A stretch of DNA of 64,000 nt from Candidatus Falkowbacteria bacterium (GTDB taxonomy: Bacteria > Patescibacteriota > Patescibacteriia > Patescibacteriales > GWE2-39-37), in NCBI GenBank assembly GCA_013336275.1, contig JAAXUA010000003.1, positions 2,698 to 66,697 of the forward strand, in the 5' to 3' direction. Positions 8,169 to 49,521 of this stretch are shown here, piece after piece. Each line of letters starts with the position of its first letter. Position 1 is the stretch's first letter. The translations under genes were made by a program, and so were the position numbers. Under the pieces are notes generated by a model that worked only from the letters and a program-made list of their open reading frames with translations, ran no database searches and was not told where the DNA came from.

Positions 8169-8597
8169 ATGGCGGAAAAAAAGTTTCTAAAAACCGCATT
8201 CGTCTTTATATCTTTTTTCTTTTTCGCCTTGGTTAGTACTGCCTCTGCTGCTACTTGCGCACCAGGCGTTCCGGTCGGCACCGGTGGTTGTACAGCCGCA
8301 GTAGTCGGCACAGGCGGGCAAGGAACAGGAGGAGCGGTATCCCTTACTCCCGCCGTCAATGTCGGAACGCCCCAACAGTTTATCGGCAAAATTATCAACA
8401 CTGCCTTGGGGGTTGTCGGCTCGCTGGCCTTGCTAATGTTCATCTATGGCGGCTTCACTTGGCTGACTAGCGCCGGCAGCGCTGACAAGGTCACTAAGGG
8501 CAAAAATATCCTAGTCTGGGCCGTTATCGGCTTAGTCGTCATCTTCATGTCCTACGGCGCAACCAAGTTCGTCTTGGACAAAATCACTGCAACCTAG
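8169..8597 (+). CDS. TrbC/VirB2-type pilin-like protein (paralog 1 of 8)
   Basis: Signal peptide, then a two-helix hairpin: ALGVVGSLALLMFIYGGFTWLTSAGSADKVTKGKNILVWAVIGLVVIF. The same core is present in seven other ORFs of the window. Confidence 0.75.
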   Translation: MAEKKFLKTAFVFISFFFFALVSTASAATCAPGVPVGTGGCTAAVVGTGGQGTGGAVSLTPAVNVGTPQQFIGKIINTALGVVGSLALLMFIYGGFTWLTSAGSADKVTKGKNILVWAVIGLVVIFMSYGATKFVLDKITAT

Positions 8598-8636
8598 TTT
8601 GCTTATATATATTCACTCTAGGCTTGGAATCCCGCA

Positions 8637-8678
8637 ACAAACAAAACGACCCATCTTTAAGTGGGTCGTTTTGTTTGT
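8637..8678. terminator. bidirectional terminator between convergent genes
   Basis: 17-bp perfect stem ACAAACAAAACGACCCA / TGGGTCGTTTTGTTTGT. Confidence 0.8.
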
Positions 8679-8689
8679 ATCGAGAATAC

Positions 8690-9559: not shown

Positions 9560-9568
9560 AACCTTATC

Positions 9569-10603: not shown

Positions 10604-10604
10604 T

Positions 10605-11027
10605 TTAATGTCCAGGGCAGATCCAATTACCGGTATCTGACGTCACTTGCCAGACACAGCCAGTAACATAGGTGGACACGCCCCATGAGGCTAATATTAT
10701 TATCAAACCTATTACTCCGGCCGTAACTCGCTTCTTGGCTTCGCCGATTTTCGACGAATCTCCGCCCGAGGTCATCCATTGATAACCGGCATAAACCACT
10801 AAGACCGTAAAGATAATTCCCAGGAATCCGAGCAAGATATTGATCATCCTAGCTACGATTACCCTGATGTCCGTGGGGTCACCGCTTTGATTGTAAGCAT
10901 CATCACCGATCGTATCCAAACCGCCCTCCTTGACCGTATCAAGCAGGCCTCCGGCCTGGACTTGGTAGGCCAAAGAAAAACATAGCAAGATTAATAAAAA
11001 ACTGAGGGCGAATTTAGTTTTCCTCAT
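10605..11027 (-). CDS. TrbC/VirB2-type pilin-like protein (paralog 2 of 8)
   Basis: Signal peptide, then LLGFLGIIFTVLVVYAGYQWMTSGGDSSKIGEAKKRVTAGVIGLIIILASWG. It is closest to the 30247..30642 paralog. Confidence 0.75.
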   Translation of the reverse strand: MRKTKFALSFLLILLCFSLAYQVQAGGLLDTVKEGGLDTIGDDAYNQSGDPTDIRVIVARMINILLGFLGIIFTVLVVYAGYQWMTSGGDSSKIGEAKKRVTAGVIGLIIILASWGVSTYVTGCVWQVTSDTGNWICPGH

Positions 11028-11161
11028 ATCAGGAAGGTTATTAATAAGTATATTAATTATACCATAATCACCTTATTAAAAAAATGCTACAATAACCTCA
11101 GGTGGGTTGACCGCTAGCCCATAAATGCCTAAACTTAACATACTAATTCCACAGCCAATAC

Positions 11162-20710: not shown

Positions 20711-20840
20711 TTTGGAGTTGACAAAAATCGTATTTTATGGAAGAATAAACTGATTTGCTCATTAAAAATCGCTATTCATAGCGAATTATTCGCATAAAGC
20801 ACTATACCATTTGAGTCAACTACCCCAAGGAGGTGGCAAA

Positions 20841-23249
20841 ATGCCCAAAAAGAAGAAAAACAGAGGCAAAAAGCAGAAAAAACAGGTCTCGCACGGCCAA
20901 TCCATGGCCCAGGCACTGGAGGAATTCCAACGCAAGCTGACGATTCCTGAGCTCTGGGAGGAGAGAAAGGAAAATTACAGGGAATCAGTCGAAGACAAGC
21001 TTTCCTTTAACTACAGGACCAAGGAACAGCTCATCATCAAAGAGGCGATGCTGCCGGCACTGACATTCTGGAAATTCATCAAGTCCCACGTCAGTGAGTA
21101 CGAACATTTCTGCTACGCTGACAACATCAACGAACGCCGAAGCTTCCTGCAGTCCTTTTTGTCCTCGGAAAACCGCTATGTCAGGCTCGTCGCCATGATC
21201 GAGCTGATGCCGATCGCCATCTGGCGCCGCATCCTGTGGCGCTCCAACATCGACTTCGTTTCCTACGAAAGCTTCTTGCGTCGCCTGCAGCCGGAACACT
21301 GGCTGGCAATCGAGTCTAACTTCGTCGATCTGTATAACGGACAGACACCCCGGATCCTCACCTCCAAGGAGGCGAGACTCCCGGAGTTCCAAGCCGAAAG
21401 CCTGTCCTCGGGCGAAGAGCGCGAACGCTGGCAGCGCCACATTTCCAAACCGGCCTGGACCAAGAACATGTTCAGCTTCGACTTCGGTTTCAACCGGTAC
21501 CCCGGAGGAGTCGACAACGACTCACCCGTCTTAAGCACGGTCGATCGACGCCGCCTGCACTCCAGCGACAACACCAAAGACTTCGTCGTCGACACCGAAT
21601 TCGGACGCTACATGAGGCTTTACCGCTCGGCACGATCGAACTACGTCGTCTTCCCGAACAAGACTGTCGAACTCAAGACGCACATCTGCCCCGGCTACTG
21701 GGCCACCATCCTGATCCATCTTATGTTCTGGATCGTCTCCCCGGCCATGACCGCCGGCCTGCTCGCCACCGCCTCGTCCAACCGTCTGCCGTGGTGGGCC
21801 AATGTCTTGCTGGCGATTCCTGCCGTCATCACGCCGCTGTGGCTATTCTGCGCTGGAGTCAAGTTTTCCTGGATCCGGTTCAATCGCTGGATCGACAACC
21901 GCGCCATCAAGTGGATCAAGTCGACAAGCATCAGCATCGAAACCTTCTGTAAGAAACACCCTCGCGGAACCGAATTGGCGGCGGGCACATTTTTCTCGCT
22001 CGCAATCGGCATTGCCGTCTTCGCCCTCTCCCAGCTTTGTCTGGGCGTCTACAATGGCGTCCTAGCAGGCGCAGCCGCCTCGGCCTACGTCGGCTACAAG
22101 ATCAGCCGTATCGGCGAAGAAAAAACGCCGATGCCGATGCACCTATTCATCCCGCTCTACACAGCTTGCCTCTACTTGGGCGGCTTGCTGGCGATCAAGT
22201 GGTCACCGTATCTGGTCAAAGGCTTGGCTTGGGTCGCAAAATACGCGGTCAAACTGTTCACCGAATGGATACCGTACGCCTGCGTCCAGATTTATGAATT
22301 CCTCTCCTGGTTGTGCATGCTAGCTGCCGGCGCCTTCATGAACTATGTCGTTCCGGCGCTCAAGTATCTCCTGATCGGCATGCTTTCCGTCGGTCTCTTC
22401 TGGCTCGTAGCACTGGTCCCGCTGGCGCTCATGGGCATACTTTATTTCGCCTATTGCCGGCTGCCGAAAGAAACGCAGACCAACCTCGACTATCTGATCG
22501 AAAAAGTCTGCTTCTACAGCATCTTCGTAATTTTCGGAGCAATGGCCCTGGGCTGTATCGTAATCTCTTTCCTGGAGGGCGGGTCGTTCTTGTCTGGCCA
22601 GACGCTGGCCGGCATCATGGTCATCGGCATCATTTCAGCTACCGCAGCTTTCTGGACCCGGATGATGGCCCAGGAAATGAATCCCGAAATCAAGCAGCTC
22701 AAAGAAGAGACCTACGCCATCCGCGGCAACATGCGGCTGAGCGGCCTCTTCAACTACCGCTACCTGGTCGAGAACCGCTGGTTCAGCCCGTTGACGCTTG
22801 AGCAGAAAACCGAGCTGGCCACCAAGATCGACCGCTTCGTCGTCAATGTCGTCCCGTCGCACCAAGAAGCTGCAGCCATCGCTTTGATCATGAGGAGTAT
22901 CAATAGCTTCGAGGCTCTGGACAAACTTGTCGCCGCCGAAGATTCCTTCCACAACCTCTACGAAGAGCACCGGTTACCGATCATCGAGATTATGCTCAAG
23001 AAATCGGTCGGCGTAAGAGAGGCTCAGGTCCTTTACCATAAGCAGCGGGAAAAATCGAAGAAGAATGCGGAACTTGGCATCATCATCGCCAAAACAGTAT
23101 TCTCTCCCATCTACTTCCCCTGCATGTTCCTGTGGTGGCTCGGCAGCAAGATCTGCACCGGCTTGCAGCACCTGCTCGACTTCCGTCGCATGGCCAAAGC
23201 TATCAGGGATTTCTGTCCCTACATCATCAAACCGGAGTATCTCGAATAA
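20841..23249 (+). CDS. large orphan polytopic membrane protein (about 802 aa)
   Basis: AAGGAGGT precedes ATG 20841. A Lys-rich N-terminus is followed by a ~290-aa soluble region, ~10 TM helices, a ~150-aa soluble region and a terminal TM helix. I recognise no motif. Confidence 0.65.
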   Translation: MPKKKKNRGKKQKKQVSHGQSMAQALEEFQRKLTIPELWEERKENYRESVEDKLSFNYRTKEQLIIKEAMLPALTFWKFIKSHVSEYEHFCYADNINERRSFLQSFLSSENRYVRLVAMIELMPIAIWRRILWRSNIDFVSYESFLRRLQPEHWLAIESNFVDLYNGQTPRILTSKEARLPEFQAESLSSGEERERWQRHISKPAWTKNMFSFDFGFNRYPGGVDNDSPVLSTVDRRRLHSSDNTKDFVVDTEFGRYMRLYRSARSNYVVFPNKTVELKTHICPGYWATILIHLMFWIVSPAMTAGLLATASSNRLPWWANVLLAIPAVITPLWLFCAGVKFSWIRFNRWIDNRAIKWIKSTSISIETFCKKHPRGTELAAGTFFSLAIGIAVFALSQLCLGVYNGVLAGAAASAYVGYKISRIGEEKTPMPMHLFIPLYTACLYLGGLLAIKWSPYLVKGLAWVAKYAVKLFTEWIPYACVQIYEFLSWLCMLAAGAFMNYVVPALKYLLIGMLSVGLFWLVALVPLALMGILYFAYCRLPKETQTNLDYLIEKVCFYSIFVIFGAMALGCIVISFLEGGSFLSGQTLAGIMVIGIISATAAFWTRMMAQEMNPEIKQLKEETYAIRGNMRLSGLFNYRYLVENRWFSPLTLEQKTELATKIDRFVVNVVPSHQEAAAIALIMRSINSFEALDKLVAAEDSFHNLYEEHRLPIIEIMLKKSVGVREAQVLYHKQREKSKKNAELGIIIAKTVFSPIYFPCMFLWWLGSKICTGLQHLLDFRRMAKAIRDFCPYIIKPEYLE

Positions 23250-26669: not shown

Positions 26670-27287
26670 TTAGATCTCTTCAACTATCTCAATCTTAGCC
26701 TTTCTGACGCCAAATTTAAGGGCGTCTTGGCGATCTTTAAACCAGACATCAACCCGTTCCTGGTACCTTGAGTTCATCCTATCCCTTACTACAAAAACCC
26801 TATCACCAAACAGCTCTGGAATCCTCACCTTGGTGCCGAACTTCAAAAAATTAGCAGCAACGGTGTCTTCTTGGTTGTGTTTGCAGAGGTTAAAGCCGTT
26901 AGCCGTGGTGCAGGGGTCGCTATCTGTTTGCCCAACCTCCGAATTATAGGCAGTCATCGAATGATAGCCGTGATCCTTTACCTTTAACACTGTCTTGGCT
27001 ACGACGGGCTTTACCTCTTCTTTCTTGCTAATATTAGATAAAGTAACCGGGGTACTCTCTGAAACGGATGAATATCCGCTGGCCTGCCCCGCAACGGCCG
27101 TAACCGGCTGCAACTGTTTAGCTGATACCGCTTCCTTGGCTAATATTGGCAAAGGAAACATCAAATAGTCATAAACGACGATCGCAACCAGCAAATTGAC
27201 ATAAATTTTGTGTTTCCGGTTTTTTAACCGGTGACAACTACCACTTAAATCCATAGTAAACTTTAACAAATTAAAAAATCCCATCAT
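26670..27287 (-). CDS. 3D-domain (MltA/RlpA-like double-psi beta-barrel) cell-wall protein
   Basis: The C-terminus MTAYNSEVGQTDSDPCTTANG...VAANFLKFGTKVRIPE..GDRVFVVRDRM...VDVWF is the 3D-domain signature. An N-terminal TM helix is present. Confidence 0.8.
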   Translation of the reverse strand: MMGFFNLLKFTMDLSGSCHRLKNRKHKIYVNLLVAIVVYDYLMFPLPILAKEAVSAKQLQPVTAVAGQASGYSSVSESTPVTLSNISKKEEVKPVVAKTVLKVKDHGYHSMTAYNSEVGQTDSDPCTTANGFNLCKHNQEDTVAANFLKFGTKVRIPELFGDRVFVVRDRMNSRYQERVDVWFKDRQDALKFGVRKAKIEIVEEI

Positions 27288-27469: not shown

Positions 27470-27976
27470 ATGAAAACGGTACAGCTCTTTCTATTAACCC
27501 TTGCCCTGGCGGCACTCAACGGTTGTGCTCTCGTTACTCCGCCACCCTTCGTCAACTCAACCACGGAAATAACCCGTGACGCCAACGGCAACATCGTTTC
27601 TTCCCGCTACCACCGTGGCATCACCGGTTTCTCCTACTCAGGAGACAAAGAGTCGGTAGGCGACTGGGCCTATGCCGAGCAGATTGCCCGCAACGGTAAA
27701 TCAGGCTCTCTATCCGAGCACACCGGGGAATTCAAAGGCATCATTGCCTCAACCGACCGCGACGTTAACGTCGTAATAACCGGAAACGGCCTCAAGCGGA
27801 GTTTTTACGTCAAGGCCGGACAAGAAATTTCCGGCACCCTTCCCTCGGGCAAATACACTGCCACCACCTATTACCGAGGCAAAAGCCGCGGCTCCTGGGA
27901 CTTTGAAGTAAGGCCCCAGAACCTGCACAGTTATGCCGGGAAAGAAGTGCATTGGTACACCGTTTACAATCGGTAG
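27470..27976 (+). CDS. lipoprotein, function unknown
   Basis: Lipobox LAALNGC after a hydrophobic signal. GAGGAGG lies upstream. Confidence 0.7.
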   Translation: MKTVQLFLLTLALAALNGCALVTPPPFVNSTTEITRDANGNIVSSRYHRGITGFSYSGDKESVGDWAYAEQIARNGKSGSLSEHTGEFKGIIASTDRDVNVVITGNGLKRSFYVKAGQEISGTLPSGKYTATTYYRGKSRGSWDFEVRPQNLHSYAGKEVHWYTVYNR

Positions 27977-27993: not shown

Positions 27994-28037
27994 CAAAAAA
28001 AGAGGCCATACGATCGTATGGCCTCGCTTTATTTTTT
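27994..28037. terminator. bidirectional terminator
   Basis: 24-nt perfect palindrome GAGGCCATACGATCGTATGGCCTC flanked by A7 and a T-run. Confidence 0.85.
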
Positions 28038-28051
28038 ACGAAAACTGACTA

Positions 28052-28492
28052 CTACGGCGAACCGGTCATACCGCCACCTCCGCTATCAACAACTGAATCC
28101 AGGTTAGAGAAAACGAAATAGGTGATCGAATAGGCCGCCAAGACTATGATCAGGCCGATCACTGCTCGCGAAATGGTATTTTTGGCTTTGGTAATCTTAG
28201 TCTCATCACCACCGGCTGTCATCCAACTATAACCTGAATAAACGATCAATACGACAAAAATTATACCCAGAAGACCGATGAAGGCCTTGATGGCTGTGGC
28301 TACGATTGTCGCTACGCCATCCTTGGTTGTTGATTCATAGCCAGCCGTCTCGCGCAGGGCCTTCTGCTGGTTGAACATACCGCTCTTGGCTTGGTCGGAA
28401 ATAAGACTAAGAGCATTGGCGCTGGCAGAGTTGAATAATATGCAGCCCCAGATAAGCAAAAAAACGATTTTTTTGTTAAGAATATTTTTCAT
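28052..28492 (-). CDS. TrbC/VirB2-type pilin-like protein (array gene 6)
   Basis: The start is set at MKNILNKK... Core: FIGLLGIIFVVLIVYSGYSWMTAGGDETKITKAKNTISRAVIGLIIVLAAYSI. Confidence 0.75.
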   Translation of the reverse strand: MKNILNKKIVFLLIWGCILFNSASANALSLISDQAKSGMFNQQKALRETAGYESTTKDGVATIVATAIKAFIGLLGIIFVVLIVYSGYSWMTAGGDETKITKAKNTISRAVIGLIIVLAAYSITYFVFSNLDSVVDSGGGGMTGSP

Positions 28493-28494
28493 AA

Positions 28495-28875
28495 TCAGAT
28501 CATAGCGGCTGAAATCCAGACCCAGATCGCATATGCACCGACCGTGATAATCAAGCCGATAACTGCCCGCCACAGAGTCTCTTTCGCCTTATCGACTTTG
28601 CCGCTGTCGCCAGCAGCGGTCATCCAATTGTAGCCTGAATAGACGATCAAAACGATAAAGATGATGCCTAATAGGCTCAAAAATGCGCTTATAACTTGCC
28701 CAATAAACCTGGCCATGGTGAACTTGTCAGCAACTTCATAACCACCCGACAATGCGACATTGTCCATCCTGCCGAACAGGGATCTTGTTTCAGCTGCTAT
28801 AGCCTTGCTGGCGACAGAAAAACTTAACAATATTGCGGCCAAAGAAAATCCTAGTTTTTTTATGGAATTGGTCAT
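28495..28875 (-). CDS. TrbC/VirB2-type pilin-like protein (array gene 5)
   Basis: Core: LSLLGIIFIVLIVYSGYNWMTAAGDSGKVDKAKETLWRAVIGLIITVGAYAI. Confidence 0.75.
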   Translation of the reverse strand: MTNSIKKLGFSLAAILLSFSVASKAIAAETRSLFGRMDNVALSGGYEVADKFTMARFIGQVISAFLSLLGIIFIVLIVYSGYNWMTAAGDSGKVDKAKETLWRAVIGLIITVGAYAIWVWISAAMI

Positions 28876-28876
28876 T

Positions 28877-29320
28877 TTATTGAATGTCTCCTTTTAACGT
28901 TTTTTCGGCCAGAGTCCTGACGACAAAGTAGCTGATGGCATAAGCAGCGAGCACCACGATCAGCCCGATCGTGGCCCGTGTTATGGTATTTTTGGCCGTA
29001 TCCACCTTGCCACTATCGCCAGCGGCAGTCATCCAATTATAACCGCCGTAGATGATCAGAAGCAAAAAGATGACTCCGATAAATTCGAGCGCCGTCTGGA
29101 TTATCGTAGCGATAATCGGATCAAGGCTTTCGTTCTCTGTTTCAATATTATACCCCGATTTGTCCGCCACTTCATCAAGGGGGGTTCTGCCGTCTCCGCT
29201 AGTGCTGTCTGTCGTACCGAAAGCATCTTTCAGATTAGCGCCCAGAACCAAGCTAGGAGCAAATGCCAAAAAAGACAAGAATAAAAACGCGATTACATTG
29301 TTTATCAGCCGTCTTTTCAT
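28877..29320 (-). CDS. TrbC/VirB2-type pilin-like protein (array gene 4)
   Basis: The start is set at MKRRLINN... Core: LEFIGVIFLLLIIYGGYNWMTAAGDSGKVDTAKNTITRATIGLIVVLAAYAI. Confidence 0.75.
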   Translation of the reverse strand: MKRRLINNVIAFLFLSFLAFAPSLVLGANLKDAFGTTDSTSGDGRTPLDEVADKSGYNIETENESLDPIIATIIQTALEFIGVIFLLLIIYGGYNWMTAAGDSGKVDTAKNTITRATIGLIVVLAAYAISYFVVRTLAEKTLKGDIQ

Positions 29321-29324
29321 ATAT

Positions 29325-29714
29325 TTATTGGACCAAGTTACCTTTAAGATTATTTGCAACGAAAGCAGTAATGGAGTAAGCCGCCAACACCACAACCAAC
29401 CCGACAAGGGCGCGAGTTATGATTTTCTTGGCCAGCACGACTTCTGAGTCGTTGCCGTTGGCCATCATCCAGCGATAACCGCCGTATATCATTAGCCCTA
29501 AAAACAATACGCCGACAAAGCTGATTATAATGCTGATGACCTGTGCGACCCTTTGAGACAGGGTTTCTTCCGGGTTGGCCGCTGTCGTATCATAACCGCT
29601 AGGAGTGGCTGTCTTGTTCAACCCAGTACTTTCAGCGAAACTGTAAGCCAATACGCTATTGCCGACTGTTAGCATCGCTAGTCCTACAAGAAAAAAAGCT
29701 AAAAACTTTTTCAT
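29325..29714 (-). CDS. TrbC/VirB2-type pilin-like protein (array gene 3)
   Basis: Core: ISFVGVLFLGLMIYGGYRWMMANGNDSEVVLAKKIITRALVGLVVVLAAYSI. Confidence 0.75.
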   Translation of the reverse strand: MKKFLAFFLVGLAMLTVGNSVLAYSFAESTGLNKTATPSGYDTTAANPEETLSQRVAQVISIIISFVGVLFLGLMIYGGYRWMMANGNDSEVVLAKKIITRALVGLVVVLAAYSITAFVANNLKGNLVQ

Positions 29715-29718
29715 AGCG

Positions 29719-30138
29719 TTATTCCGGCGTAGCGGTTAGCGATCCACCCACAAAAGAAGTGATGGCATAAGCGCTTAAAACAATGATTAAGCCGATAGTA
29801 GCGTTGATTATCAGCTCTTTGGCCTTGGCCACTTTCTGATCATTGCCCTGGGCCGTCATCCACATCAAGCCGCCGTAAACGATCAATACAAAAAATATGA
29901 CGCCGACGTAGGATAAGACTATGCCTATTACGCTACCCACCCTGGTGGAAATGTCCTCTTTATTTTGTTGTGACTGCGGGTTAAAAGAATCTCCCCCGTT
30001 TGGTATGGCCGTAGCAGTCTCGTTCAGCCCACCATCGAACGCCAAGGCAGGCAATACAGCGAAAAACAAGGAATAAGCCAACAAAAATAAAACGGCCAAC
30101 TTATTCGCATGCCTCGATATTGAAGTCGCAAAAATCAT
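29719..30138 (-). CDS. TrbC/VirB2-type pilin-like protein (array gene 2)
   Basis: Core: LSYVGVIFFVLIVYGGLMWMTAQGNDQKVAKAKELIINATIGLIIVLSAYAI. Confidence 0.75.
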   Translation of the reverse strand: MIFATSISRHANKLAVLFLLAYSLFFAVLPALAFDGGLNETATAIPNGGDSFNPQSQQNKEDISTRVGSVIGIVLSYVGVIFFVLIVYGGLMWMTAQGNDQKVAKAKELIINATIGLIIVLSAYAITSFVGGSLTATPE

Positions 30139-30167
30139 AAATGAGTGAAGGAATTAGTTCGATTATC

Positions 30168-30210
30168 CTGCATTGGTGCGGCCGCAAATCTTGCGGGCGC
30201 GCCAATGCAG
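30168..30210 (-). other. GC-rich intercistronic stem-loop
   Basis: CTGCATTGGTGCGGCCGC-AAATCTT-GCGGGCGCGCCAATGCAG forms about 17 bp with one mismatch. It lies in the only sizeable gap (108 nt) of the pilin array. No T-run follows on the minus strand. Confidence 0.7.
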
Positions 30211-30246
30211 AGTAAAAACTCTGCATTGAACGTATATTCCAAAAAA

Positions 30247-30642
30247 CTATGTGGACATAGTTGCGTTAGAAATAGACGAGATGACGAAGCGGGAGATACC
30301 CCAGCTTGCCAAAATGATGATCAGACCGATAACGCCGGCTGCCATCAACTTCTTGGCTTCGCCAATCTTATCTTCGCTGCCACCAGAGGTCATCCATTTG
30401 AAACCACCGGCTACGATGATAACAACAGCAATGATACCCAAGAAACCGAGGGTAACGTTGATGATGCGAGCAACAATCACCTGAGGAGAATTGTTGGTCA
30501 AACCAATGCCGGCATTAACTGCTGCCTGCTGACCGCCCCACAAATCTGTGGTTGGGGCAAAGGCGCCTGCGTTGGCGGCTACTGCTGGCAGTAATACTAC
30601 TGCCCAAGCAGCCACGATAGCTAATTTTCGCAATGTTTTCAT
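30247..30642 (-). CDS. TrbC/VirB2-type pilin-like protein (array gene 1, promoter-proximal)
   Basis: Signal peptide ending AANAGA. Core: LGFLGIIAVVIIVAGGFKWMTSGGSEDKIGEAKKLMAAGVIGLIIILASWGI. SD GGGGGTG is present. Confidence 0.8.
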   Translation of the reverse strand: MKTLRKLAIVAAWAVVLLPAVAANAGAFAPTTDLWGGQQAAVNAGIGLTNNSPQVIVARIINVTLGFLGIIAVVIIVAGGFKWMTSGGSEDKIGEAKKLMAAGVIGLIIILASWGISRFVISSISNATMST

Positions 30643-30783
30643 AATTCACCCCCTCTCTGGTGGCGCAGAGCGGCAAAGCCGTCGGCACGCTTATTTCTCA
30701 TGTTGTTTGAACAATTCAGTCCACTAGGCCTAGCGGACTAAACTGCTTACGCTCCACGGAAAGTGTTTATTAACATTAGTAAT

Positions 30784-30813
30784 ATTTTAGCATATTTTGG
30801 CCAGAAGGAACAA
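30784..30813 (-). promoter_or_regulatory. candidate promoter of the pilin array
   Basis: Minus strand TTGTTC, 18 nt, TGCTAAAAT (extended -10). It gives a leader of about 135 nt containing the hairpin 30718-30739 (AGTCCACTAGG/CCTAGCGGACT). Confidence 0.5.
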
Positions 30814-30824
30814 CAGGGCCGAAA

Positions 30825-31553
30825 TTATTTACCTGAATCCAGTCTCCGACGCAGTTTCAGGAAGTTGCGCATGAATCTCGTGGCATCGCGAAAAACCCTG
30901 ACTTTGCTCTTGCGACGGTCATAGCGCTCTTCTGACCAATCGACCGGCAATTCCCGCACTCTCAGTCCAGCCAGCCCGGCGAAGACCGCGAGTTCGGTGT
31001 CAAAAAACCAACCGGCGTCAATCACCTTTGGGGCGATTAAAAGGAATGAAGAGCGCCTGATCGCCTTAAACCCGCACTGAAGATCAGAAAACTTGTGACC
31101 TAAGATCAAGCGGGAGAGCAGGTGGCAGCTTTGCGAAGTGAATTCCCTGACGAAGGATCGCTCTATTTTCGAGCCGACCAAAAGACGTGATCCAACTACT
31201 AGGTCGCACTCGTTTGCAATGATCGGTCCAACCAAGGCTGGAATATCATCTAGCGAAACTGCCAAGTCGAGGTCCATATAGGCCAAAATATCCGCATCGC
31301 TCTGCAGCCAATAGTTTTTCAAAGCGCGGCCGCGGCCGGGCTGAGCGCTCTCGATAGCCGCAAATTCACCAGGGTTTTCCGAAACTAACTCCTGGGCAAT
31401 GGCAAAAGACCGGTCAATCGACCCGTTTACGACCAAGACTATCTGCCAATCGAAGCCGAAATTGGCCTGGCGGCAATAATTCAAAAGTCTCAAGGCATTT
31501 TCCCTGAGCATCTGTTCTTCGTTGTAGATCGGCAGACAAAAATCAACCTTCAT
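30825..31553 (-). CDS. GT2-family glycosyltransferase (polyprenol-phosphate sugar synthase-like)
   Basis: The N-terminus CLPIYNEE..., then DADILAYMDLDL (DxD) and the typical GT-A layout. Confidence 0.75.
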   Translation of the reverse strand: MKVDFCLPIYNEEQMLRENALRLLNYCRQANFGFDWQIVLVVNGSIDRSFAIAQELVSENPGEFAAIESAQPGRGRALKNYWLQSDADILAYMDLDLAVSLDDIPALVGPIIANECDLVVGSRLLVGSKIERSFVREFTSQSCHLLSRLILGHKFSDLQCGFKAIRRSSFLLIAPKVIDAGWFFDTELAVFAGLAGLRVRELPVDWSEERYDRRKSKVRVFRDATRFMRNFLKLRRRLDSGK

Positions 31554-32292
31554 ATTTTTGAGCTGCGCCGTATATGGTCAAGCCGAACGGCAAACCCTTC
31601 CTATTAAACAAATACTTTTCACTATTCAATATCAACAGCAGCAAGGCGTTAAGCGGCCGAGGCAGGTTGATTGCCTCCGTCGAAAGTTCGTTTCGGCCTT
31701 TGCCTCGGTTAAACAACTTCTTAGTCAGCCGCATTACAGCTACGGGCAAAAATACCCAGACATTCCAATATCCCAGGCGCGCGTTTCCGTAACCGGCGCG
31801 TGATAATTGCTCGGCAATGCCGCTTCTTTCATAACGGCGGAAATGTCCCATGGCCCGGTCATGCTGGCTGAAGATGGCACCGAAGGCTGGCACGGTAAAC
31901 ACTAGCCAGCCGCCTGGCTTTAGGCTCTTAAAAATCTTATCAAGTGTCGTTTGATCATTTTCCAAGTGTTCTAAAACGTCGAAAGCGCATACCACGTCAT
32001 ACAGCCCTTCGCCCAAGCTTTCATTATCCATATCGACCAGCAATGTCTTGAAACCTTTGCCCGCCACCATTTTCAAAGCTTCTGCGTTATTATCCAGCCC
32101 CACGACATCTCCGAACTCAGCCAAAACCGGCAGCTCCGTACCCGTACCGCACCCGATATCCAAAATTACCCGGGAGCGGTCCTTGTCTTCGCAAATAGAA
32201 GCAAGCAGCCTCTGGATCAAGCCTTTTCTTGCAATGTACCAAAAGTGATCGGTTTCGATTTTTTGCTGGGTCAGATAATCCTTATAATCCAT
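31543..32292 (-). CDS. class I SAM-dependent methyltransferase
   Basis: ILDIGCGTGTE motif I and DVVCAFDVLEHL. Confidence 0.75.
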   Translation of the reverse strand: MDYKDYLTQQKIETDHFWYIARKGLIQRLLASICEDKDRSRVILDIGCGTGTELPVLAEFGDVVGLDNNAEALKMVAGKGFKTLLVDMDNESLGEGLYDVVCAFDVLEHLENDQTTLDKIFKSLKPGGWLVFTVPAFGAIFSQHDRAMGHFRRYERSGIAEQLSRAGYGNARLGYWNVWVFLPVAVMRLTKKLFNRGKGRNELSTEAINLPRPLNALLLLILNSEKYLFNRKGLPFGLTIYGAAQKYEG

Positions 32293-32307
32293 GAGTTTTC
32301 TTTGACC

Positions 32308-34014
32308 CTATTTTACCAGATTAAAAAACAAATTAATACTGTCATTCAAAGTGCCCGCCACGATCTGTTCTGCCTTCGGAGAAGTCCCGTCTTGAGCGGT
32401 CTTGGTGATTTTTCCCTGTTTCAAATTGAACGAATACCTATCAGTCTGATCCATCCATACGAGAAACCGGTCCGAGTACGGCTGAATCAACAAGATGCTT
32501 TTCCCCTTTTCTGCTGGATTCTGCCCTTCCAGCACGGAAGCATACGAGCGCCTGAAACGGGTAGTGGGCAACGGCTGGCCTACGAGCTCCATTATCGTCG
32601 GCAAAGTGTCCATATGGCTATAGCTCCCTGAGTCTATCGTCCTGCCCACTTTGCGCCCGCCTACGAAAACCGCCAGCGAGGTCAGAAAATTCTCATCCAG
32701 GGCACCGCGTTGGTTGAAATAATTGTCTGACTGGATGGCAGCCGGCCAGCTATGGTCGCCGAAGACGAACAAAACATAATCCTTCTCCGGATAGACACTG
32801 TCTAAACCGCTGATCAGCTCACCCAAATACTCATCCTGTTTCGCCATACTGCCAGAAAGCCGGTCACTGAATTTGAGCTCGGCGGAGTTAGTTGCGGATG
32901 CATTATTGAACGGCCAGTGATTCGTGGCCTCAAAGGTGATGTAGGCCAAGCTCTTGCTTTCATCGCCATCCCTTTTCATCGACTCGAAAGTTCTCTCCAA
33001 AAAAACGCCTTCTTGCCGCCCCCACATGAATTGCGGGTCGCCCGGCTTCATCGTGTCATAACCATGGACCTGGTCAAAACCGATCTCTGACATGAACTTG
33101 CCCGTCTGCTCGAATTCCAAGCGGCTGCTCGCGTAAAAGCTGCTCTTATAGCCCAGCGGCTTCAACAGTTTTGGCAAACACCGGACCTCGATGCTGCGGC
33201 CGTCAGAAACCAAGTCTTTCGCGAATGAGCTTGGTAAAGAGCACAGGATATTCTCTTGGGCCAAAATCGTCTGGACGCTGTTGCTATAAAACCCGGGGAA
33301 ATAAAATCCTTGGCTGGCGATTTTCAAAAAATTTGGAGTCGTGCTCGGGCTGGCCAAGCGGGCGTTGAAGCTCTCCATCTGAAGCATGACGATATGTTTC
33401 AGATTGCTCTCTATGCTCTGCCCGTCCAAAGGCTTGGCTGACAGCGGCTTCAGCCTGACTGACTCCTCTACCAAGGGATCATAAATCCGCTCCTGATAAA
33501 AATCGACGCCCTTGTTGCCGTTCGCCACTTGCTTAACGAAAGCGAACAGCTCGTTGTCTGCTATCCGCAAACTGGCGATCACGACAACAAACAAGATAAC
33601 CGATGTTCTTATGCTGGCTTTCTTGAACCTTGAAAATATAAGTGCATTTAAACTGGCTGTGACCAAAAGCAGCAAAACCAACCACATGTAGCTTCGCCCC
33701 AAGTAGACGAACTCCTGCCAGCGGCGAGCAGCTAACAGCATGTCGAGCGGCGCGCCAACCACGGCCGAGTAGGAAACCAAGAAATAATAAGCGAAAAGCA
33801 CCGTAGCCGAGGTGATTGAACCAAGCGCTGCTGGACGAAGAGAAGCTGCCAGATACCAAAACAGAAAAAATTGAGCTGCCCCGAAGATGGCCTTGAAGTG
33901 GCCTGCCCCGACTTCAAATGACAACGCAAAAAAAATCCCGTTGGATAGCAAAAACAAGGCCACACCATAATAGGCAGCGTATTCTTTAATATGATTTGCT
34001 AATTTATTTTTCAT
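32308..34014 (-). CDS. LTA-synthase/sulfatase-family transferase (membrane N-terminus plus alkaline-phosphatase-fold domain)
   Basis: Five N-terminal TM helices, then MLQMESFNARL... and GDHSWP, typical of LtaS or phosphoglycerol/phosphoethanolamine transferases. Confidence 0.7.
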   Translation of the reverse strand: MKNKLANHIKEYAAYYGVALFLLSNGIFFALSFEVGAGHFKAIFGAAQFFLFWYLAASLRPAALGSITSATVLFAYYFLVSYSAVVGAPLDMLLAARRWQEFVYLGRSYMWLVLLLLVTASLNALIFSRFKKASIRTSVILFVVVIASLRIADNELFAFVKQVANGNKGVDFYQERIYDPLVEESVRLKPLSAKPLDGQSIESNLKHIVMLQMESFNARLASPSTTPNFLKIASQGFYFPGFYSNSVQTILAQENILCSLPSSFAKDLVSDGRSIEVRCLPKLLKPLGYKSSFYASSRLEFEQTGKFMSEIGFDQVHGYDTMKPGDPQFMWGRQEGVFLERTFESMKRDGDESKSLAYITFEATNHWPFNNASATNSAELKFSDRLSGSMAKQDEYLGELISGLDSVYPEKDYVLFVFGDHSWPAAIQSDNYFNQRGALDENFLTSLAVFVGGRKVGRTIDSGSYSHMDTLPTIMELVGQPLPTTRFRRSYASVLEGQNPAEKGKSILLIQPYSDRFLVWMDQTDRYSFNLKQGKITKTAQDGTSPKAEQIVAGTLNDSINLFFNLVK

Positions 34015-34032
34015 TATTGCCCGCCGGAGAGC

Positions 34033-35649
34033 TTAATTTTTACAGAAGGCGATTGCCAAGCCATCTTCAAAACAGTTGCGCCATTCTTTGGCCGACTTCA
34101 AATAATCGATCAGATGACTATCGGCCCTAAGGTCGCTCTCTGTTATTCCGAAAAGCAGCCTGTTAAACCAAGTAATCTCTGGGTCACGCGGTTTGCTCAG
34201 CATGACCATATCGATCCGATGCTTCTTAAGATATTTGTCTGCCTCGCCCTCTTTGAAAAAACGATGATACTCTTCAAGAATCGTGTGGTCTTCGTATCCG
34301 TGTTGCGGCTGTCGTCCGTCAACGAACAAGGGAAGACCGGGCCACTGCCACAACAGGTAACCGCCCCAGTTGAAATCATTAAGCACCCTGGCCGGCGCAG
34401 GAACAGACGATTTCAACTCGGCCACAGCGGCGCAAGGGAAATAGCCGCAATAATAATCGAATGGGCTGTTCGTAAAACTAACCTTCGTAAAACAGAATGC
34501 GGCGAGGCTGAAAAATACTGCGGAGCCCGTGCCGATAATGATTCTAGCCCTCTTTGAAACGAGCCATTGGCGGACATTGGCAACGACAAATTCTTTTGAA
34601 AATATATCAACCAGCCAAGGAAGACTGACAACGGCCAAAAGAGGCGTGTGTCGGCGCGACTTGAGCGACATCACCCAAAAAAGGAGCACTAAGCTCAGCC
34701 ACCACAAATCAATTTTGAATCCACGGCTCCTGTTGATTACTTTGACCAAGACCAAAATCAAGGCAGTCGCGACCAAGCAAAGATAGAGGACGACTAACGG
34801 TTGCTGCGGGAAAAAGTAAAATGGCATCCACTCGCTAATCGCAGTCAAATAATAGGTGTTTCCGAAAGAAAAAAAGAAATCATACATTTTCCAGCCATAA
34901 GGATTGACCAGCGTAGAAGCGGCCGCTAAGACAGCCCATAGCCCGAAGACTCTCACCCTCTCGAGTGGCAAGGTTTGAGAAAAATCGATAAATTTAAGCC
35001 TGTCTTGCCATCTCCTGCCAAAATCAAGAAGCGCCATCAGGACGAAATAGCCCAAGAGCAGAGCCAGACCGACCAAAAAACCTGCGTGGAGGTTGGCCCA
35101 GATCAGAAAAAGCGGCACCAGCCAATACAAGTCCTTGCTTCTGCGGCTTTTCTGAAAATTATCAATCACAGAGAGCTCAAGCAAAAGTCCTAATAAAGTC
35201 ACTTCCTGCATTCTGACTCCTAGGCTATGTCTGGCCGCAAAATACGCCAAGAAGCCGAGCGCGAAAAACCAAAATACGCTTTTTTCCAATCTTGCAAACT
35301 GGCGACGATAAAGAATGATAAAAACCGCCAAAATGATAGCGGCAAAAAATATAGATACAGTGATATACCCGAGCCTATCATACAAAAAATAAGTCACAGC
35401 ATCGATCAACCACTCGTGGTCGACCCAGGCTGCTCCAGGCAAAGTGTGGCTGTAATCGGCGACTTGAGGGACCTGGCCATTTTTCAGAATCTCTTTGCCA
35501 GCCAACAAATGCCAGCCAAAATCATTATCAAGATAGCTGAATGAATTGCCAAGCAGTAAAACAACAAATAAGCTGACTAGGCTAAGTGACAGGATTTTAA
35601 GATGTATATTCTTGATTGATTCCATAACAACCCCATTATAACACATCAA
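34033..35649 (-). CDS. large polytopic membrane protein, possibly a GT-C-type glycosyltransferase
   Basis: About 12 TM helices with an early loop motif DNDFGWHLLAG...VDHEWL and a ~130-aa C-terminal soluble domain. The true start may be MESIKN (35625). Confidence 0.4.
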   Translation of the reverse strand: MMCYNGVVMESIKNIHLKILSLSLVSLFVVLLLGNSFSYLDNDFGWHLLAGKEILKNGQVPQVADYSHTLPGAAWVDHEWLIDAVTYFLYDRLGYITVSIFFAAIILAVFIILYRRQFARLEKSVFWFFALGFLAYFAARHSLGVRMQEVTLLGLLLELSVIDNFQKSRRSKDLYWLVPLFLIWANLHAGFLVGLALLLGYFVLMALLDFGRRWQDRLKFIDFSQTLPLERVRVFGLWAVLAAASTLVNPYGWKMYDFFFSFGNTYYLTAISEWMPFYFFPQQPLVVLYLCLVATALILVLVKVINRSRGFKIDLWWLSLVLLFWVMSLKSRRHTPLLAVVSLPWLVDIFSKEFVVANVRQWLVSKRARIIIGTGSAVFFSLAAFCFTKVSFTNSPFDYYCGYFPCAAVAELKSSVPAPARVLNDFNWGGYLLWQWPGLPLFVDGRQPQHGYEDHTILEEYHRFFKEGEADKYLKKHRIDMVMLSKPRDPEITWFNRLLFGITESDLRADSHLIDYLKSAKEWRNCFEDGLAIAFCKN

Positions 35650-48908: not shown

Positions 48909-48915
48909 ATCCGAA

Positions 48916-49503: not shown

Positions 49504-49521
49504 ATTGATTTGTTATTTATA

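What the first reader, a model, noticed from the sequence alone, without database searches (positions are those of the whole stretch)
28052..30824. Tandem array of six VirB2/TrbC-type pilin-like paralogs, with two more elsewhere and no secretion machinery in 64 kb
Six consecutive minus-strand genes of 126-147 aa each have a signal peptide, a variable ~40-60-aa region and a conserved two-helix hairpin. The consensus is roughly G-[IV]-I-F-x-V-L-I-V-Y-[GS]-G-Y-x-W-M-T-A-x-G-[DN]-x-x-K-[VI]-x-x-A-K-x-x-I-x-x-A-x-I-G-L-I-[IV]-V-L-x-A-Y-[AS]-I.

The gaps between genes 2-6 are only 1-4 nt. Two further paralogs lie at 8169..8597 and 10605..11027. The latter is most similar to the promoter-proximal array gene (both have GEAKK...AGVIGLIIILASWG).

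This fold class is known from conjugative or T4SS pili and is reported as expanded in CPR bacteria. However, no VirB4/VirD4/VirB6-like gene is in this window. That raises the question of what assembles these proteins. It also raises whether the variable ectodomains make up a repertoire: major plus minor subunits, or antigenic or host-range variants.
Basis: partly seen in the sequence, partly recalled or inferred. Interest (0 to 1): 0.6.

Follow-up and report, generated by a model that had tools for sequence, protein, structure and literature searches.

The report
Six-gene VirB2-like pilin array, Falkowbacteria
This is a real operon of six small secreted pilin-like genes in an ultrasmall (CPR/Patescibacteria) bacterium, an already described kind of "VirB2-like pilin array", here a fixed ordered set of six ancient gene types rather than a pool of interchangeable variants.

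Summary
Six co-oriented minus-strand genes (28052-30642) and two singletons (8169-8597, 10605-11027) all pass Pfam's cutoff for T4SS_pilin (PF18895). No VirB4/VirB6/VirD4 is detectable in the 64 kb. The window is from a Candidatus Falkowbacteria MAG (class ABY1).

Such arrays are already published: 441 "VirB2 arrays" of 2-11 genes in Patescibacteria, and an essential six-pilin array in Southlakia epibionticum. Pilins lie far from virB4 in about 40% of assemblies. So the "assembly puzzle" is mostly expected, but I could not reach the rest of this genome to show its T4SS.

New here:
- In 79 ABY1 loci the arrays have a modal size of 6 and a conserved order A1-A6, and none lies within 10 kb of a VirB4. 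This favours a fixed major-plus-minor subunit set over an antigenic repertoire.
- The common neighbours are a GT2 gene, a GT-C glycosyltransferase with no Pfam family, or a solute-binding-protein gene.
- The lead gene A1 has its own promoter and a conserved structured 5' leader. It has the strongest codon bias and about 6-10 times lower dS than its neighbours. A conserved structured RNA separates it from A2.

Verdict: new member of a known kind, modest interest.

The parts
30247..30642 (-). A1, promoter-proximal pilin (131 aa); proposed major or most highly expressed subunit
   Evidence: PF18895 at 35.6 bits. Strong SD GAGGGGGTG. Lowest ENC of the genes tested, 41.1. Signal-peptide plus core dS is 0.12-0.33 where neighbours are saturated. 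A1-type is first in the arrays of 57 of 79 ABY1 loci.
29719..30138 (-). A2 pilin paralog (139 aa)
   Evidence: PF18895 at 38.8 bits. 1:1 orthologues in L004 and L010.
29325..29714 (-). A3 pilin paralog (129 aa)
   Evidence: PF18895 at 35.5 bits. Lies 4 nt after A2.
28877..29320 (-). A4 pilin paralog (147 aa)
   Evidence: PF18895 at 33.2 bits. Ectodomain motif ANLKDAF...PLD.VA..[SA]GY recurs in other ABY1 loci.
28495..28875 (-). A5 pilin paralog (126 aa)
   Evidence: PF18895 at 30.0 bits. Lies 1 nt after A4.
28052..28492 (-). A6, last pilin paralog (146 aa), with a conserved C-terminal tail SNLDSVVDSGGGGMTGSP
   Evidence: PF18895 at 40.7 bits. Tail identity 17-18 of 19 between orthologues, omega 0.02-0.05. 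A6-type is confidently assigned in 47 ABY1 loci and closes most of those arrays.
28002..28025 (.). Bidirectional intrinsic-terminator-like hairpin closing the operon
   Evidence: 10-bp stem with 6 GC pairs and T-runs on both strands, 27 nt after the A6 stop.
30643..30800 (-). Putative promoter (TTGTTC, 18-nt spacer, extended -10 TGCTAAAAT) and a structured 5' leader of about 130 nt for A1
   Evidence: 95% identical to L004 and 91% to L010 over the whole intergenic region. The block from the putative -35 to the ATG is 100% identical to L004, while flanking coding genes are 68-77% identical. The RNAalifold consensus has 47 pairs, 5 with compensatory changes. No Rfam family matches.
30139..30246 (-). 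Structured A1-A2 intergenic RNA with two mutually exclusive conserved hairpins
   Evidence: MFE -36.8 kcal/mol, z = -5.66. 28 consensus pairs, 7 with compensatory changes across 5 variants. No T-run follows.
8169..8597 (+). B, singleton pilin paralog (142 aa)
   Evidence: PF18895 at 41.3 bits. B-type copies head the arrays in Magasanikbacteria-type loci.
10605..11027 (-). C, singleton pilin paralog (140 aa), 1 nt upstream of a GH-like gene (9569-10603) and a ROK kinase gene (8690-9559)
   Evidence: PF18895 at 35.9 bits; TrbC at 23.5 bits. The unit flippase <- -> pilin, GH5-like, ROK ... <- pilin is conserved in distant relatives L006-L009.
30825..35649 (-). Co-oriented upstream gene block: GT-C glycosyltransferase (34033-35649), sulfatase-family protein (32308-34014), methyltransferase (31543-32292), GT2 (30825-31553). 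It is a conserved neighbour of ABY1 pilin arrays; a functional link is unproven.
   Evidence: Pfam annotations. ORF538 AlphaFold pLDDT 92.9; Foldseek hits DPY19, STT3, AglB and PglB at E 2e-6 to 2e-3. GT2 occurs in 37 of 79 loci, and the GT-C-type membrane protein in 27 plus 12 of 79.

Best explanation
The locus is the ABY1/Falkowbacteria version of the Patescibacterial 'VirB2-like pilin array'. It is one operon of six Sec-exported, signal-peptidase-I-processed small proteins of Pfam family T4SS_pilin (PF18895).

Each protein has a divergent ectodomain of about 24-36 aa, a conserved two-helix hairpin with the loop W-M-T-A-x-G-D-x-x-K, and a short C-terminal tail.

**Shown**
- The family membership.
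- The operon anatomy: tiny gaps and a terminator after A6.
- 1:1 orthology and conserved gene order A1 to A6 across related genomes and across class ABY1.
- Strong purifying selection on the hairpin.
- The special status of A1: its own conserved promoter and leader, the strongest codon bias, and the slowest synonymous rate.

**Inferred**
- The six are non-redundant subunits of one surface filament or envelope-spanning structure. A1 would be the abundant major subunit and A2-A6 the minor or specialised ones (base, tip or adaptor).
- The structured leader and the A1-A2 intergenic RNA would set a high A1 to A2-A6 expression ratio.
- After membrane insertion the pilins would be extracted and polymerised by the MPF-FATA-like T4SS (VirB4, TrsD, PrgI/VirB3, VirB6) that nearly all Patescibacteria encode elsewhere on the chromosome. 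This would serve host attachment or exchange in an epibiotic lifestyle.
For: - **Family.** PF18895 passes its cutoff for all 8. NCBIfam 'Mbov_0395 pilin-like conjugal transfer protein' gives E 5e-9 to 1e-5 for all 8.
- **Link to a real T4SS.** Two tandem homologues sit inside a Firmicutes T4SS cluster next to a CD1110-type VirB4. They detect all 8 window paralogs by phmmer at E 2e-9 to 2e-5.
- **Fold.** The AlphaFold model has a helical hairpin at pLDDT 88-96.
- **Operon.** Gaps of 1-4 nt and a terminator at 28002-28025.
- **Orthology.** 1:1 orthologous six-gene arrays with the same flanks in L004 and L010. Pooled core omega is 0.05-0.06. Ectodomain dN is about 4 times core dN.
- **Breadth.** 79 ABY1 loci have a modal array size of 6 and collinear A1-A6 order.
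- **A1.** ENC 41.1; dS 0.12-0.33 against pS 0.60-0.83 (dS 1.2 or above, mostly saturated) in the neighbouring genes, including IF-2. The leader and intergenic RNA show covariation.
- **Literature.** Arrays of 2-11 pilins occur in 383 assemblies. A six-pilin array is essential in S. epibionticum. virB4 is widespread, and pilins are often unlinked to it (PMC12102498, PMC10633639, PMC12857230). T4SS pilins are among the most highly expressed secreted proteins in Minisyncoccaceae (PMC10936435).
Against: - No T4SS gene was found in the window or within 10 kb of any of 79 ABY1 arrays. I could not examine the rest of this genome.
- The classical TrbC/VirB2 Pfam model is below threshold (best 23.5 against 27.9 bits).
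- No solved pilin is detectable by sequence or by Foldseek. A two-helix hairpin is too simple to discriminate.
- No pilus made of PF18895 proteins has been visualised in any organism, as far as the papers I read say.
- A1 as major subunit rests on expression proxies, not on expression data.
Confidence: 0.62

Rival explanations
1. The six genes are a repertoire of interchangeable variants, used for antigenic variation or to match different hosts. One variant would be used at a time, with the variable ectodomains under diversifying selection.
For: - Ectodomains diverge much faster than cores: pooled dN is 0.32-0.47 against 0.08-0.11.
- Identity within the array is only 23-42%.
- PMC12102498 suggests this by analogy with Bartonella and Anaplasma.
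- A1-type and B-type copies are duplicated in some lineages.
Against: - Every paralog has a 1:1 orthologue at the same array position in related genomes. The A1 to A6 order is kept across ABY1 at 40-65% identity.
- Paralog-specific ectodomain motifs are conserved across families, for example ANLKDAF..PLD.VA..AGY.
- Where dS is measurable (A1), ectodomain omega is 0.12-0.24, not above 1.
- All six sit in one operon with 1-4 nt gaps, so they are probably co-expressed.
- No silent partial cassettes were seen.
Confidence: 0.1
2. In ABY1 these PF18895 proteins work independently of a T4SS. They would form, or belong to, a different envelope structure that depends on the conserved neighbours. Either the GT2 plus GT-C pair glycosylates them or builds a glycan they associate with, or the solute-binding protein encoded just upstream in other lineages works with them.
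For: - 0 of 79 arrays lie within 10 kb of a VirB4.
- GT2 occurs in 37 of 79 loci. The GT-C membrane protein is the gene immediately upstream in 24 loci, in varying orientations.
- The GT-C fold is closest to protein-glycosylating enzymes: DPY19, STT3, AglB and PglB.
- An SBP_bac_1 gene lies directly upstream and co-oriented in 20 loci.
Against: - Adjacency may be inherited synteny. The block dnaA-dnaN-PBP1-GT2-GT-C-array recurs.
- GT-C homologues also occur in Nitrospira and Kazan, so the enzyme is not confined to Patescibacteria; whether those genomes carry PF18895 pilins was not checked.
- N-x-S/T sequons are not enriched in 412 ectodomains: 134 observed against 124.9 +/- 9.7 in shuffles.
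- Homologues in Saccharibacteria and Firmicutes sit inside T4SS clusters.
Confidence: 0.15
3. They are not filament subunits. They would be small integral membrane proteins that stay in the cytoplasmic membrane, for example as a hetero-oligomeric channel or scaffold. 'Pilin' would then be a misleading family name.
For: - No structure or micrograph of a PF18895 filament exists in the literature I read.
- The fold search is uninformative. The nearest generic matches are membrane helical hairpins such as ATP synthase subunit c and respiratory supercomplex subunits.
- Gram-positive T4SSs are generally described as lacking pili.
Against: - Cleavable signal peptide plus hairpin is exactly the VirB2/TraA propilin layout.
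- Sub-threshold TrbC and VirB2 hits exist: E 6e-5 and 0.058 for C.
- Very high expression is reported for family members, and A1 shows strong codon bias. Both fit a polymer subunit better than a channel.
Confidence: 0.1

Closest known systems
Patescibacterial 'VirB2 arrays' (Quinonero-Coronel et al. 2025, Microb Genom 11:001409), including the essential six-pilin array in the T4SS locus SEML1_0006-0019 of Southlakia epibionticum ML1 (Wang et al. 2023, Cell 186:4803)
   Same: - Same Pfam family (PF18895).
- Tandem arrays of sequence-divergent, structurally similar pilins. Here identity is 23-42%; the published mean is 25% and the maximum 54%.
- Also six genes.
- Monoderm CPR host.
   Different: - Here, and in all 79 ABY1 loci I examined, the array is not in or near the T4SS cluster.
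- It lies next to a GT2/GT-C glycosyltransferase block instead.
- Two extra singletons sit in a glycan-gene context.
- The paper names Microgenomatia and Saccharimonadia as the classes richest in arrays. It does not describe the collinear six-class ABY1 arrangement in the parts I read.
VirB2/TrbC conjugative pilins of diderm T4SS (Pfam PF04956; Agrobacterium VirB2, RP4 TrbC)
   Same: - Small propilin with a long signal peptide.
- Two hydrophobic helices joined by a short basic loop.
- Weak sequence similarity (sub-threshold PF04956 and PRK13857 hits).
   Different: - Below the family's gathering score in all eight.
- Longer variable N-terminal ectodomain.
- No evidence of cyclisation.
- No adjacent virB3-virB11 genes.
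- The host is a monoderm.
Mbov_0395 / ICE_MMCAP2_0565 family pilin-like conjugal transfer proteins of Mollicutes ICEs and Firmicutes T4SS clusters (NCBIfam NF045849)
   Same: Best non-CPR sequence relatives: E 5e-9 to 1e-5 by HMM, and phmmer E down to 2e-9 with the Pontibacillus pair. In Pontibacillus they are also present as a tandem pair.
   Different: - All eight window proteins score below the NCBIfam cutoff (25-36 against 40 bits).
- Those proteins lie inside a conjugation cluster beside VirB4. The window genes do not.
Multi-copy virB2 paralogs of Bartonella and Anaplasma T4SS
   Same: Tandem amplification and divergence of T4SS pilin genes.
   Different: Those are interpreted as antigenic or host-interaction variants. 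Here conserved order and 1:1 orthology argue for fixed, distinct roles.

Membership tests
Pfam PF18895 T4SS_pilin | Whole-protein score at or above the curated gathering score (26.6 bits) | tested here: met
   All eight score 30.0-41.3 bits. The precomputed Pfam annotation of the same genes in Logan contigs agrees.
Pfam PF04956 TrbC/VirB2 pilin | Whole-protein score at or above the gathering score (27.9 bits) | tested here: not met
   Best is C at 23.5 bits (E 6e-5), then A2 at 16.9 and A1 at 12.1. The others are not reported.
NCBIfam NF045849 Mbov_0395 family pilin-like conjugal transfer protein | Score at or above the curated cutoff (40 bits) | tested here: not met
   Scores are 24.7-35.7 bits at E 5e-9 to 1e-5. 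This indicates homology but not membership of the equivalog.
VirB2-type propilin architecture | Cleavable N-terminal signal peptide followed by two hydrophobic helices joined by a short loop carrying basic residues | tested here: met
   Sequences show K/R n-regions, h-regions and AxA-like sites. The AlphaFold model has helices 2-22, 53-84 and 90-129. The loop is WMTxxGxxxK(I/V)xxAK. Cleavage itself was not tested.
VirB2-type pilin (structural homology to solved T4SS pilins) | Significant fold or sequence match to a solved VirB2, TraA or TrbC pilin | tested here: inconclusive
   Foldseek against PDB gave no hit with E below 1. A profile search of PDB sequences gave only spurious hits. A two-helix hairpin carries too little signal.
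T4SS pilin (functional definition) | Encoded with, or assembled by, a VirB4-containing T4SS | tested here: not met
   No VirB4, VirB6 or VirD4 in the 64-kb window, nor within 10 kb of 79 related arrays. Presence elsewhere in the genome is not testable with these tools.
Patescibacterial VirB2 array (sensu Quinonero-Coronel 2025) | Two or more PF18895/PF04956 genes in tandem or separated by one non-pilin gene, with high sequence divergence between members, in a Patescibacteria genome | tested here: met
   Six in tandem with mean pairwise identity 35% (23-42%). The genome is Candidatus Falkowbacteria, HGA34 locus tags.
GT-C glycosyltransferase (for neighbour ORF 34033-35649) | Polytopic membrane fold matching solved GT-C enzymes, with conserved acidic residues in the first extracytoplasmic loop | tested here: met
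   pLDDT 92.9. Foldseek probability 1.00 to DPY19, STT3, AglB and PglB with TM 0.47-0.55. D35 is invariant within a conserved LDxDFGWH motif just after TM1. No Pfam model matches.
Type IV (T4P/T2SS) pilins | Class III signal peptide with G/FTLIE N-methylation motif (PF07963) | tested here: not met
   No N_methyl hit in any of the eight. The N-termini are Sec/SPase I type.

The most novel reading that the evidence does not exclude
In class ABY1 the PF18895 array has become a self-contained surface-filament operon that is unlinked from the T4SS.
- It would be a fixed, collinear set of six subunit classes.
- Its lead gene would be controlled by a conserved structured leader and an A1-A2 RNA switch with two exclusive hairpins.
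- Its products would be modified or assembled with the help of the conserved adjacent GT2 plus DPY19/STT3-like GT-C pair. That would make them glycosylated T4SS-type pilins, which have not been described.
Probability: 0.15. Interest if true: 0.6.

Novelty: new member of a known kind. Interest (0 to 1): 0.3.

Why it matters
T4SS-type pilin arrays are essential for epibiotic growth in the only genetically tractable Patescibacterium, and they are unique among monoderm T4SSs. What they build remains unknown.

This locus adds no new kind of system. It does show the following for the large ABY1 class:
- The array is an ancient ordered six-member set, which argues for a hetero-oligomeric structure rather than antigenic variation.
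- The array is routinely separated from virB4 and travels with glycosyltransferase or solute-binding-protein genes.
- One member, A1, carries marks of very high, RNA-regulated expression.

These points give concrete targets for antibodies, cryo-ET and glycoproteomics in CPR enrichment cultures.

Tried and rejected
- **Fold and PDB searches for the pilin.** Foldseek of the A1 model against PDB and a profile search of PDB sequences gave nothing meaningful. A helical hairpin is too simple for these methods.
- **Reaching the rest of the genome.** I tried look-up of encoding contigs on edge genes, A1, A6 and the NCBI form of ORF538. Only short Logan contigs identical to the window were returned, and the 195-kb NCBI contig is not indexed. 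The window's genome is not a GTDB representative, so it was absent from the genome-contig scan. The paper's supplement does not contain the HGA34 tag.
- **Locus search with all eight paralogs.** The search for related loci failed because no stretch was conserved enough. It was redone with A4-A6 and their orthologues.
- **VirB4 candidate in two loci.** Cluster 68 (840-851 aa, Walker A at about residue 445) has an FtsK-type N-terminus and is not VirB4.
- **N-glycosylation sequon enrichment.** It was tested in 412 ectodomains and rejected.
- **Known RNA family for the conserved leader.** None was found.
- **Recent sweep or HGT as the cause of A1's low dS.** This is not favoured. dS rises with phylogenetic distance (0.2-0.3 within the clade, 0.8-1.1 to L015), and the ectodomain segment is diverged. 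It is not excluded.
- **ORF812 (20811-23249) as a divergent VirB6.** There is no Pfam or NCBIfam support, and it is absent from the syntenic locus L010. This was left open.
- **Metagenome scan for the leader.** It found only two more contigs, both of the L004 type.

Full report
**Observation.** The window holds six consecutive minus-strand ORFs:
- A1 30247-30642 (131 aa)
- A2 29719-30138 (139 aa)
- A3 29325-29714 (129 aa)
- A4 28877-29320 (147 aa)
- A5 28495-28875 (126 aa)
- A6 28052-28492 (146 aa)

The gaps from A2 to A6 are 4, 4, 1 and 2 nt. A 108-nt gap separates A1 from A2. Two more paralogs lie at 8169-8597 (+, 'B') and 10605-11027 (-, 'C'). All eight pass the Pfam gathering score for PF18895 T4SS_pilin at 30-41 bits against 26.6. 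The classical TrbC/VirB2 model PF04956 is sub-threshold (best 23.5 against 27.9). NCBIfam's Mbov_0395 pilin-like conjugal transfer model gives E 5e-9 to 1e-5 but stays below its cutoff of 40 bits.

Each protein has a Sec-type signal peptide, a divergent ectodomain of about 24-36 aa, a conserved two-helix hairpin and a short tail. The AlphaFold model of A1, built with a 71-sequence alignment, gives helices 53-84 and 90-129 at pLDDT 88-96. The operon ends in a strong bidirectional terminator-like hairpin at 28002-28025.

**Context in the window.** Pfam scans of about 45 ORFs of 150 aa or more show housekeeping genes: IF-2, RNase Y, SHMT, FolD, RecQ, LspA and a histidine kinase. They also show envelope-glycan genes. 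No VirB4, VirD4 or VirB6 family appears. Relaxed Pfam and NCBIfam scans of the unannotated ORFs add nothing related to a T4SS.

Directly upstream and co-oriented with the array are four genes:
- a 538-aa polytopic protein (34033-35649);
- a sulfatase-family protein;
- a methyltransferase;
- a GT2 glycosyltransferase.

C sits 1 nt upstream of a GH-like gene and a ROK kinase gene, and it is divergent from a polysaccharide flippase gene.

**Origin.** Homologue names identify the window as a Candidatus Falkowbacteria MAG. The locus tags are HGA34_02860, HGA34_02990 and HGA34_03005, on a 195-kb contig. Falkowbacteria belong to GTDB class ABY1.

**What is already known.** Quinonero-Coronel et al. 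2025 (PMC12102498) used PF18895 and PF04956 to call VirB2-like pilins in Patescibacteria.
- Of 1,948 VirB4-containing assemblies with pilin genes, the pilins lay near virB4 in only 1,135.
- They describe 441 arrays of 2-11 pilin genes, with mean identity 25% and maximum 54%.
- These include the essential array of Southlakia epibionticum.

Wang et al. 2023 (PMC10633639) showed that the T4SS locus and its pilins are essential for epibiotic growth. A 2025 review counts six divergent VirB2-like pilins there (PMC12857230). A metatranscriptome study lists T4SS pilins among the most highly expressed secreted proteins of Minisyncoccaceae (PMC10936435). The finding is therefore a member of a known kind. 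Separation from virB4 is common rather than paradoxical.

**Comparative analysis.** Two related genomes carry the same six-gene array with the same flanks. They are L004 (identical to L011; GCA_964443495.1) and L010 (a JGI metagenome contig). Every gene has a 1:1 orthologue at the same position. Pooled Nei-Gojobori estimates give core omega of 0.05-0.06. Ectodomain dN is about four times core dN, and ectodomain dS is saturated.

A scan of GTDB representative genomes with an A4-A6 profile returned 79 loci, apparently all of ABY1 type (record titles name Falkowbacteria, Magasanikbacteria, Buchananbacteria, Uhrbacteria and Veblenbacteria, among generic 'Patescibacteria' and mislabelled titles). 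A pilin HMM finds 519 pilins in them. The largest tandem array per locus has a mode of 6 (29 of 79 loci) and a range of 1-13. I assigned each pilin to its best-matching window paralog. The arrays are collinear A1-A2-A3-A4-A5-A6. An A1-type gene is confidently assigned in 57 loci and an A6-type gene in 47, and they sit first and last in most of those arrays. Expansions arise mainly by duplication of A1-type or B-type genes.

This argues for six ancient, non-redundant classes, that is, a fixed major-plus-minor subunit set. It argues against an antigenic or host-range cassette repertoire.

One caveat applies. The loci were ascertained with A4-A6-like probes, so arrays lacking these types are under-sampled.

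**Neighbours.** Clustering the flanking ORFs and annotating cluster representatives gave these counts:

| Neighbour | Loci (of 79) |
|---|---|
| GT2 | 37 |
| 521-aa membrane protein homologous to window ORF538 | 27 |
| related 547-aa membrane protein | 12 |
| SBP_bac_1 | 26 (directly upstream and co-oriented in 20) |
| PBP1 | 19 |
| DnaA or DnaN | 6-9 |

- No VirB4 appears in any locus. The only large Walker-A ORFs are FtsK, UvrA and similar.
- ORF538 has no Pfam family. Its AlphaFold model has pLDDT 92.9 and matches GT-C enzymes: DPY19, STT3, AglB, PglB and AftA, at E 2e-6 to 3e-3.
- ORF538 homologues also occur in Kazan and Nitrospira.
- A test for N-x-S/T sequon enrichment in 412 ectodomains was negative, with 134 observed against 124.9 +/- 9.7 in shuffles.

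Pilin glycosylation therefore remains an adjacency-based speculation.

**Link to real T4SS clusters.** A tblastn search of C against plasmids gave one weak hit. It is annotated 'Mbov_0395 family pilin-like conjugal transfer protein' on a Pontibacillus megaplasmid. That gene is followed by a second pilin-like gene, a 779-aa protein, a CD1110-family VirB4-like ATPase and a large peptidoglycan hydrolase.
- phmmer with the two Pontibacillus pilin-like proteins hits all eight window paralogs at E 2e-9 to 2e-5, and about 500 ABY1 pilins.
- The Pontibacillus VirB4 and its other cluster partners hit nothing in the window or the 79 loci.

This supports the family's T4SS ancestry. It also suggests that monoderm T4SS clusters can carry such pilin-like genes themselves.

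**A1 is special.** The 182-nt non-coding region upstream of A1 is 95% identical to L004 and 91% identical to L010. From the putative -35 element to the ATG it is 100% identical to L004. Flanking coding genes are only 68-77% identical. The conserved block begins at a putative -35 element and an extended -10 (TGCTAAAAT). It folds into a structured leader whose long hairpin keeps pairing through compensatory changes in L010 and L015 (47 consensus pairs, 5 compensated). No Rfam family matches.

| Measure | A1 | Comparison |
|---|---|---|
| dS within the clade (signal peptide plus core) | 0.12-0.33 | neighbours have pS 0.60-0.83 (dS 1.2 or above, mostly saturated); IF-2 (95% aa identity) has dS about 1.7 |
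| dS to the more distant L015 | 0.7-1.1 | not applicable |
| ENC | 41.1 | IF-2 44.8; A2-A6 52-57 |

Only the roughly 75 nt of A1 that encode the ectodomain are diverged. The A1-A2 spacer folds strongly (z = -5.66). Across five variants it keeps 28 pairs, 7 of them compensated. Two mutually exclusive conserved hairpins share the segment CUCUGCAUUG.

I read these features as marks of a very highly expressed, RNA-regulated lead gene, which is the usual layout of major-subunit-first pilus operons. That reading is an inference. Recent recombination of an A1 cassette is not fully excluded.

**Verdict.** 'No machinery in the window' is correct but expected. I could not test whether this genome has a T4SS elsewhere. 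The locus is a new member of a known kind. It adds some unreported detail for class ABY1: collinear six-class arrays, systematic separation from virB4, GT2/GT-C and SBP neighbours, and conserved RNA elements around A1.

Noticed in passing
window 30643-30824 (minus strand), upstream of A1: This 182-nt non-coding region is 91-100% identical between genomes whose neighbouring coding genes are only 68-77% identical. It contains a putative extended -10 promoter and a structured leader with compensatory base changes. The Shine-Dalgarno sequence sits in a small hairpin, CACC-AGAGAGGG-GGUG. No Rfam family matches.
   Followed up: partly
window 30139-30246 (minus strand), between A1 and A2: A conserved structured RNA (z = -5.66) with two mutually exclusive hairpins: CAAUGCAGAG/CUCUGCAUUG, or CUCUGCAUUG...CAAUGCAGG enclosing a covarying stem. 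Seven pairs are compensated across five variants, and no T-run follows. It may be a processing, stability or attenuation element that sets the A1 to A2-A6 ratio.
   Followed up: partly
window 30247-30642 (A1 coding sequence): Synonymous divergence of the signal-peptide and core codons is about 6-10 times lower than in IF-2 and all other neighbours. The roughly 75-nt ectodomain segment is diverged. A1 also has the lowest ENC (41.1). Strong codon or RNA-level selection is favoured. Recombination is not excluded.
   Followed up: partly
window 34033-35649 (minus strand): A 538-aa polytopic protein with no Pfam or NCBIfam family. It is confidently predicted (pLDDT 92.9) as a GT-C glycosyltransferase closest to DPY19, STT3, AglB and PglB. 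It has an invariant D35 within a conserved LDxDFGWH motif after TM1. Homologues occur in Falkowbacteria, Kazan and Nitrospira. It is the commonest immediate neighbour of ABY1 pilin arrays.
   Followed up: yes
window 8169-12577; loci L006-L009: The unit polysaccharide flippase <- -> pilin C, GH5/GH42-like hydrolase (1-nt gap), ROK kinase ... <- pilin B is conserved in a distant Parcubacteria/Falkowbacteria relative. This suggests a second, separate conserved pilin context tied to glycan genes.
   Followed up: partly
L092 (Pontibacillus plasmid NZ_CP062975.1, record 351801-361354): A Firmicutes T4SS cluster (CD1110-type VirB4 plus a peptidoglycan hydrolase) carries two tandem PF18895-like pilin-like genes. 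This sits awkwardly with statements that monoderm MPF-FATA systems lack VirB2-like pilins. It hints that the CPR pilins came with the monoderm T4SS.
   Followed up: partly
loci L038, L046, L050-L053, L057, L059, L065, L075, L078, L081, L084-L086 and others: In Magasanikbacteria-, Buchananbacteria- and Uhrbacteria-type genomes an SBP_bac_1 solute-binding-protein gene lies immediately upstream of the pilin array and co-oriented with it (20 of 79 loci). Arrays reach 13 genes there. Type IV pilin-like (N_methyl) genes lie a few genes further upstream.
   Followed up: no
loci L013, L020, L021, L028, L030, L037, L039, L047, L066: Many ABY1 arrays lie within 3-5 genes of dnaA or dnaN, in the block dnaA-dnaN-PBP1-GT2-GT-C-array. 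Part of the published 'T4SS genes near the origin' signal could come from pilin arrays rather than from virB4.
   Followed up: no
window 43938-50001 (minus strand): A 1714-aa secreted or anchored protein with no Pfam or NCBIfam match, followed by two small membrane-anchored proteins (195 and 159 aa). The 159-aa protein carries the motif AWDAPTANPPGNNV just after its anchor helix. This is a candidate giant surface protein cluster.
   Followed up: no
window 20811-23249 (+): An 812-aa protein with a roughly 290-aa cytoplasmic N-terminus and at least 8 TM segments, and no family match. It is conserved in L004/L011 (66% identity) but absent from the syntenic position in L010.
   Followed up: partly
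window 26670-27287 (minus strand) and 27470-27976 (+): A 205-aa membrane-anchored protein of unknown family is a recurrent downstream neighbour of the arrays (21 of 79 loci). A lipoprotein gene (lipobox LNGC) converges on the array and shares its terminator.
   Followed up: partly
window 28052-28108 (C-terminus of A6): The A6 tail SNLDSVVDSGGGGMTGSP is almost invariant between orthologues (omega 0.02-0.05), unlike the tails of the other five. It may be a specific interaction or processing motif.
   Followed up: no
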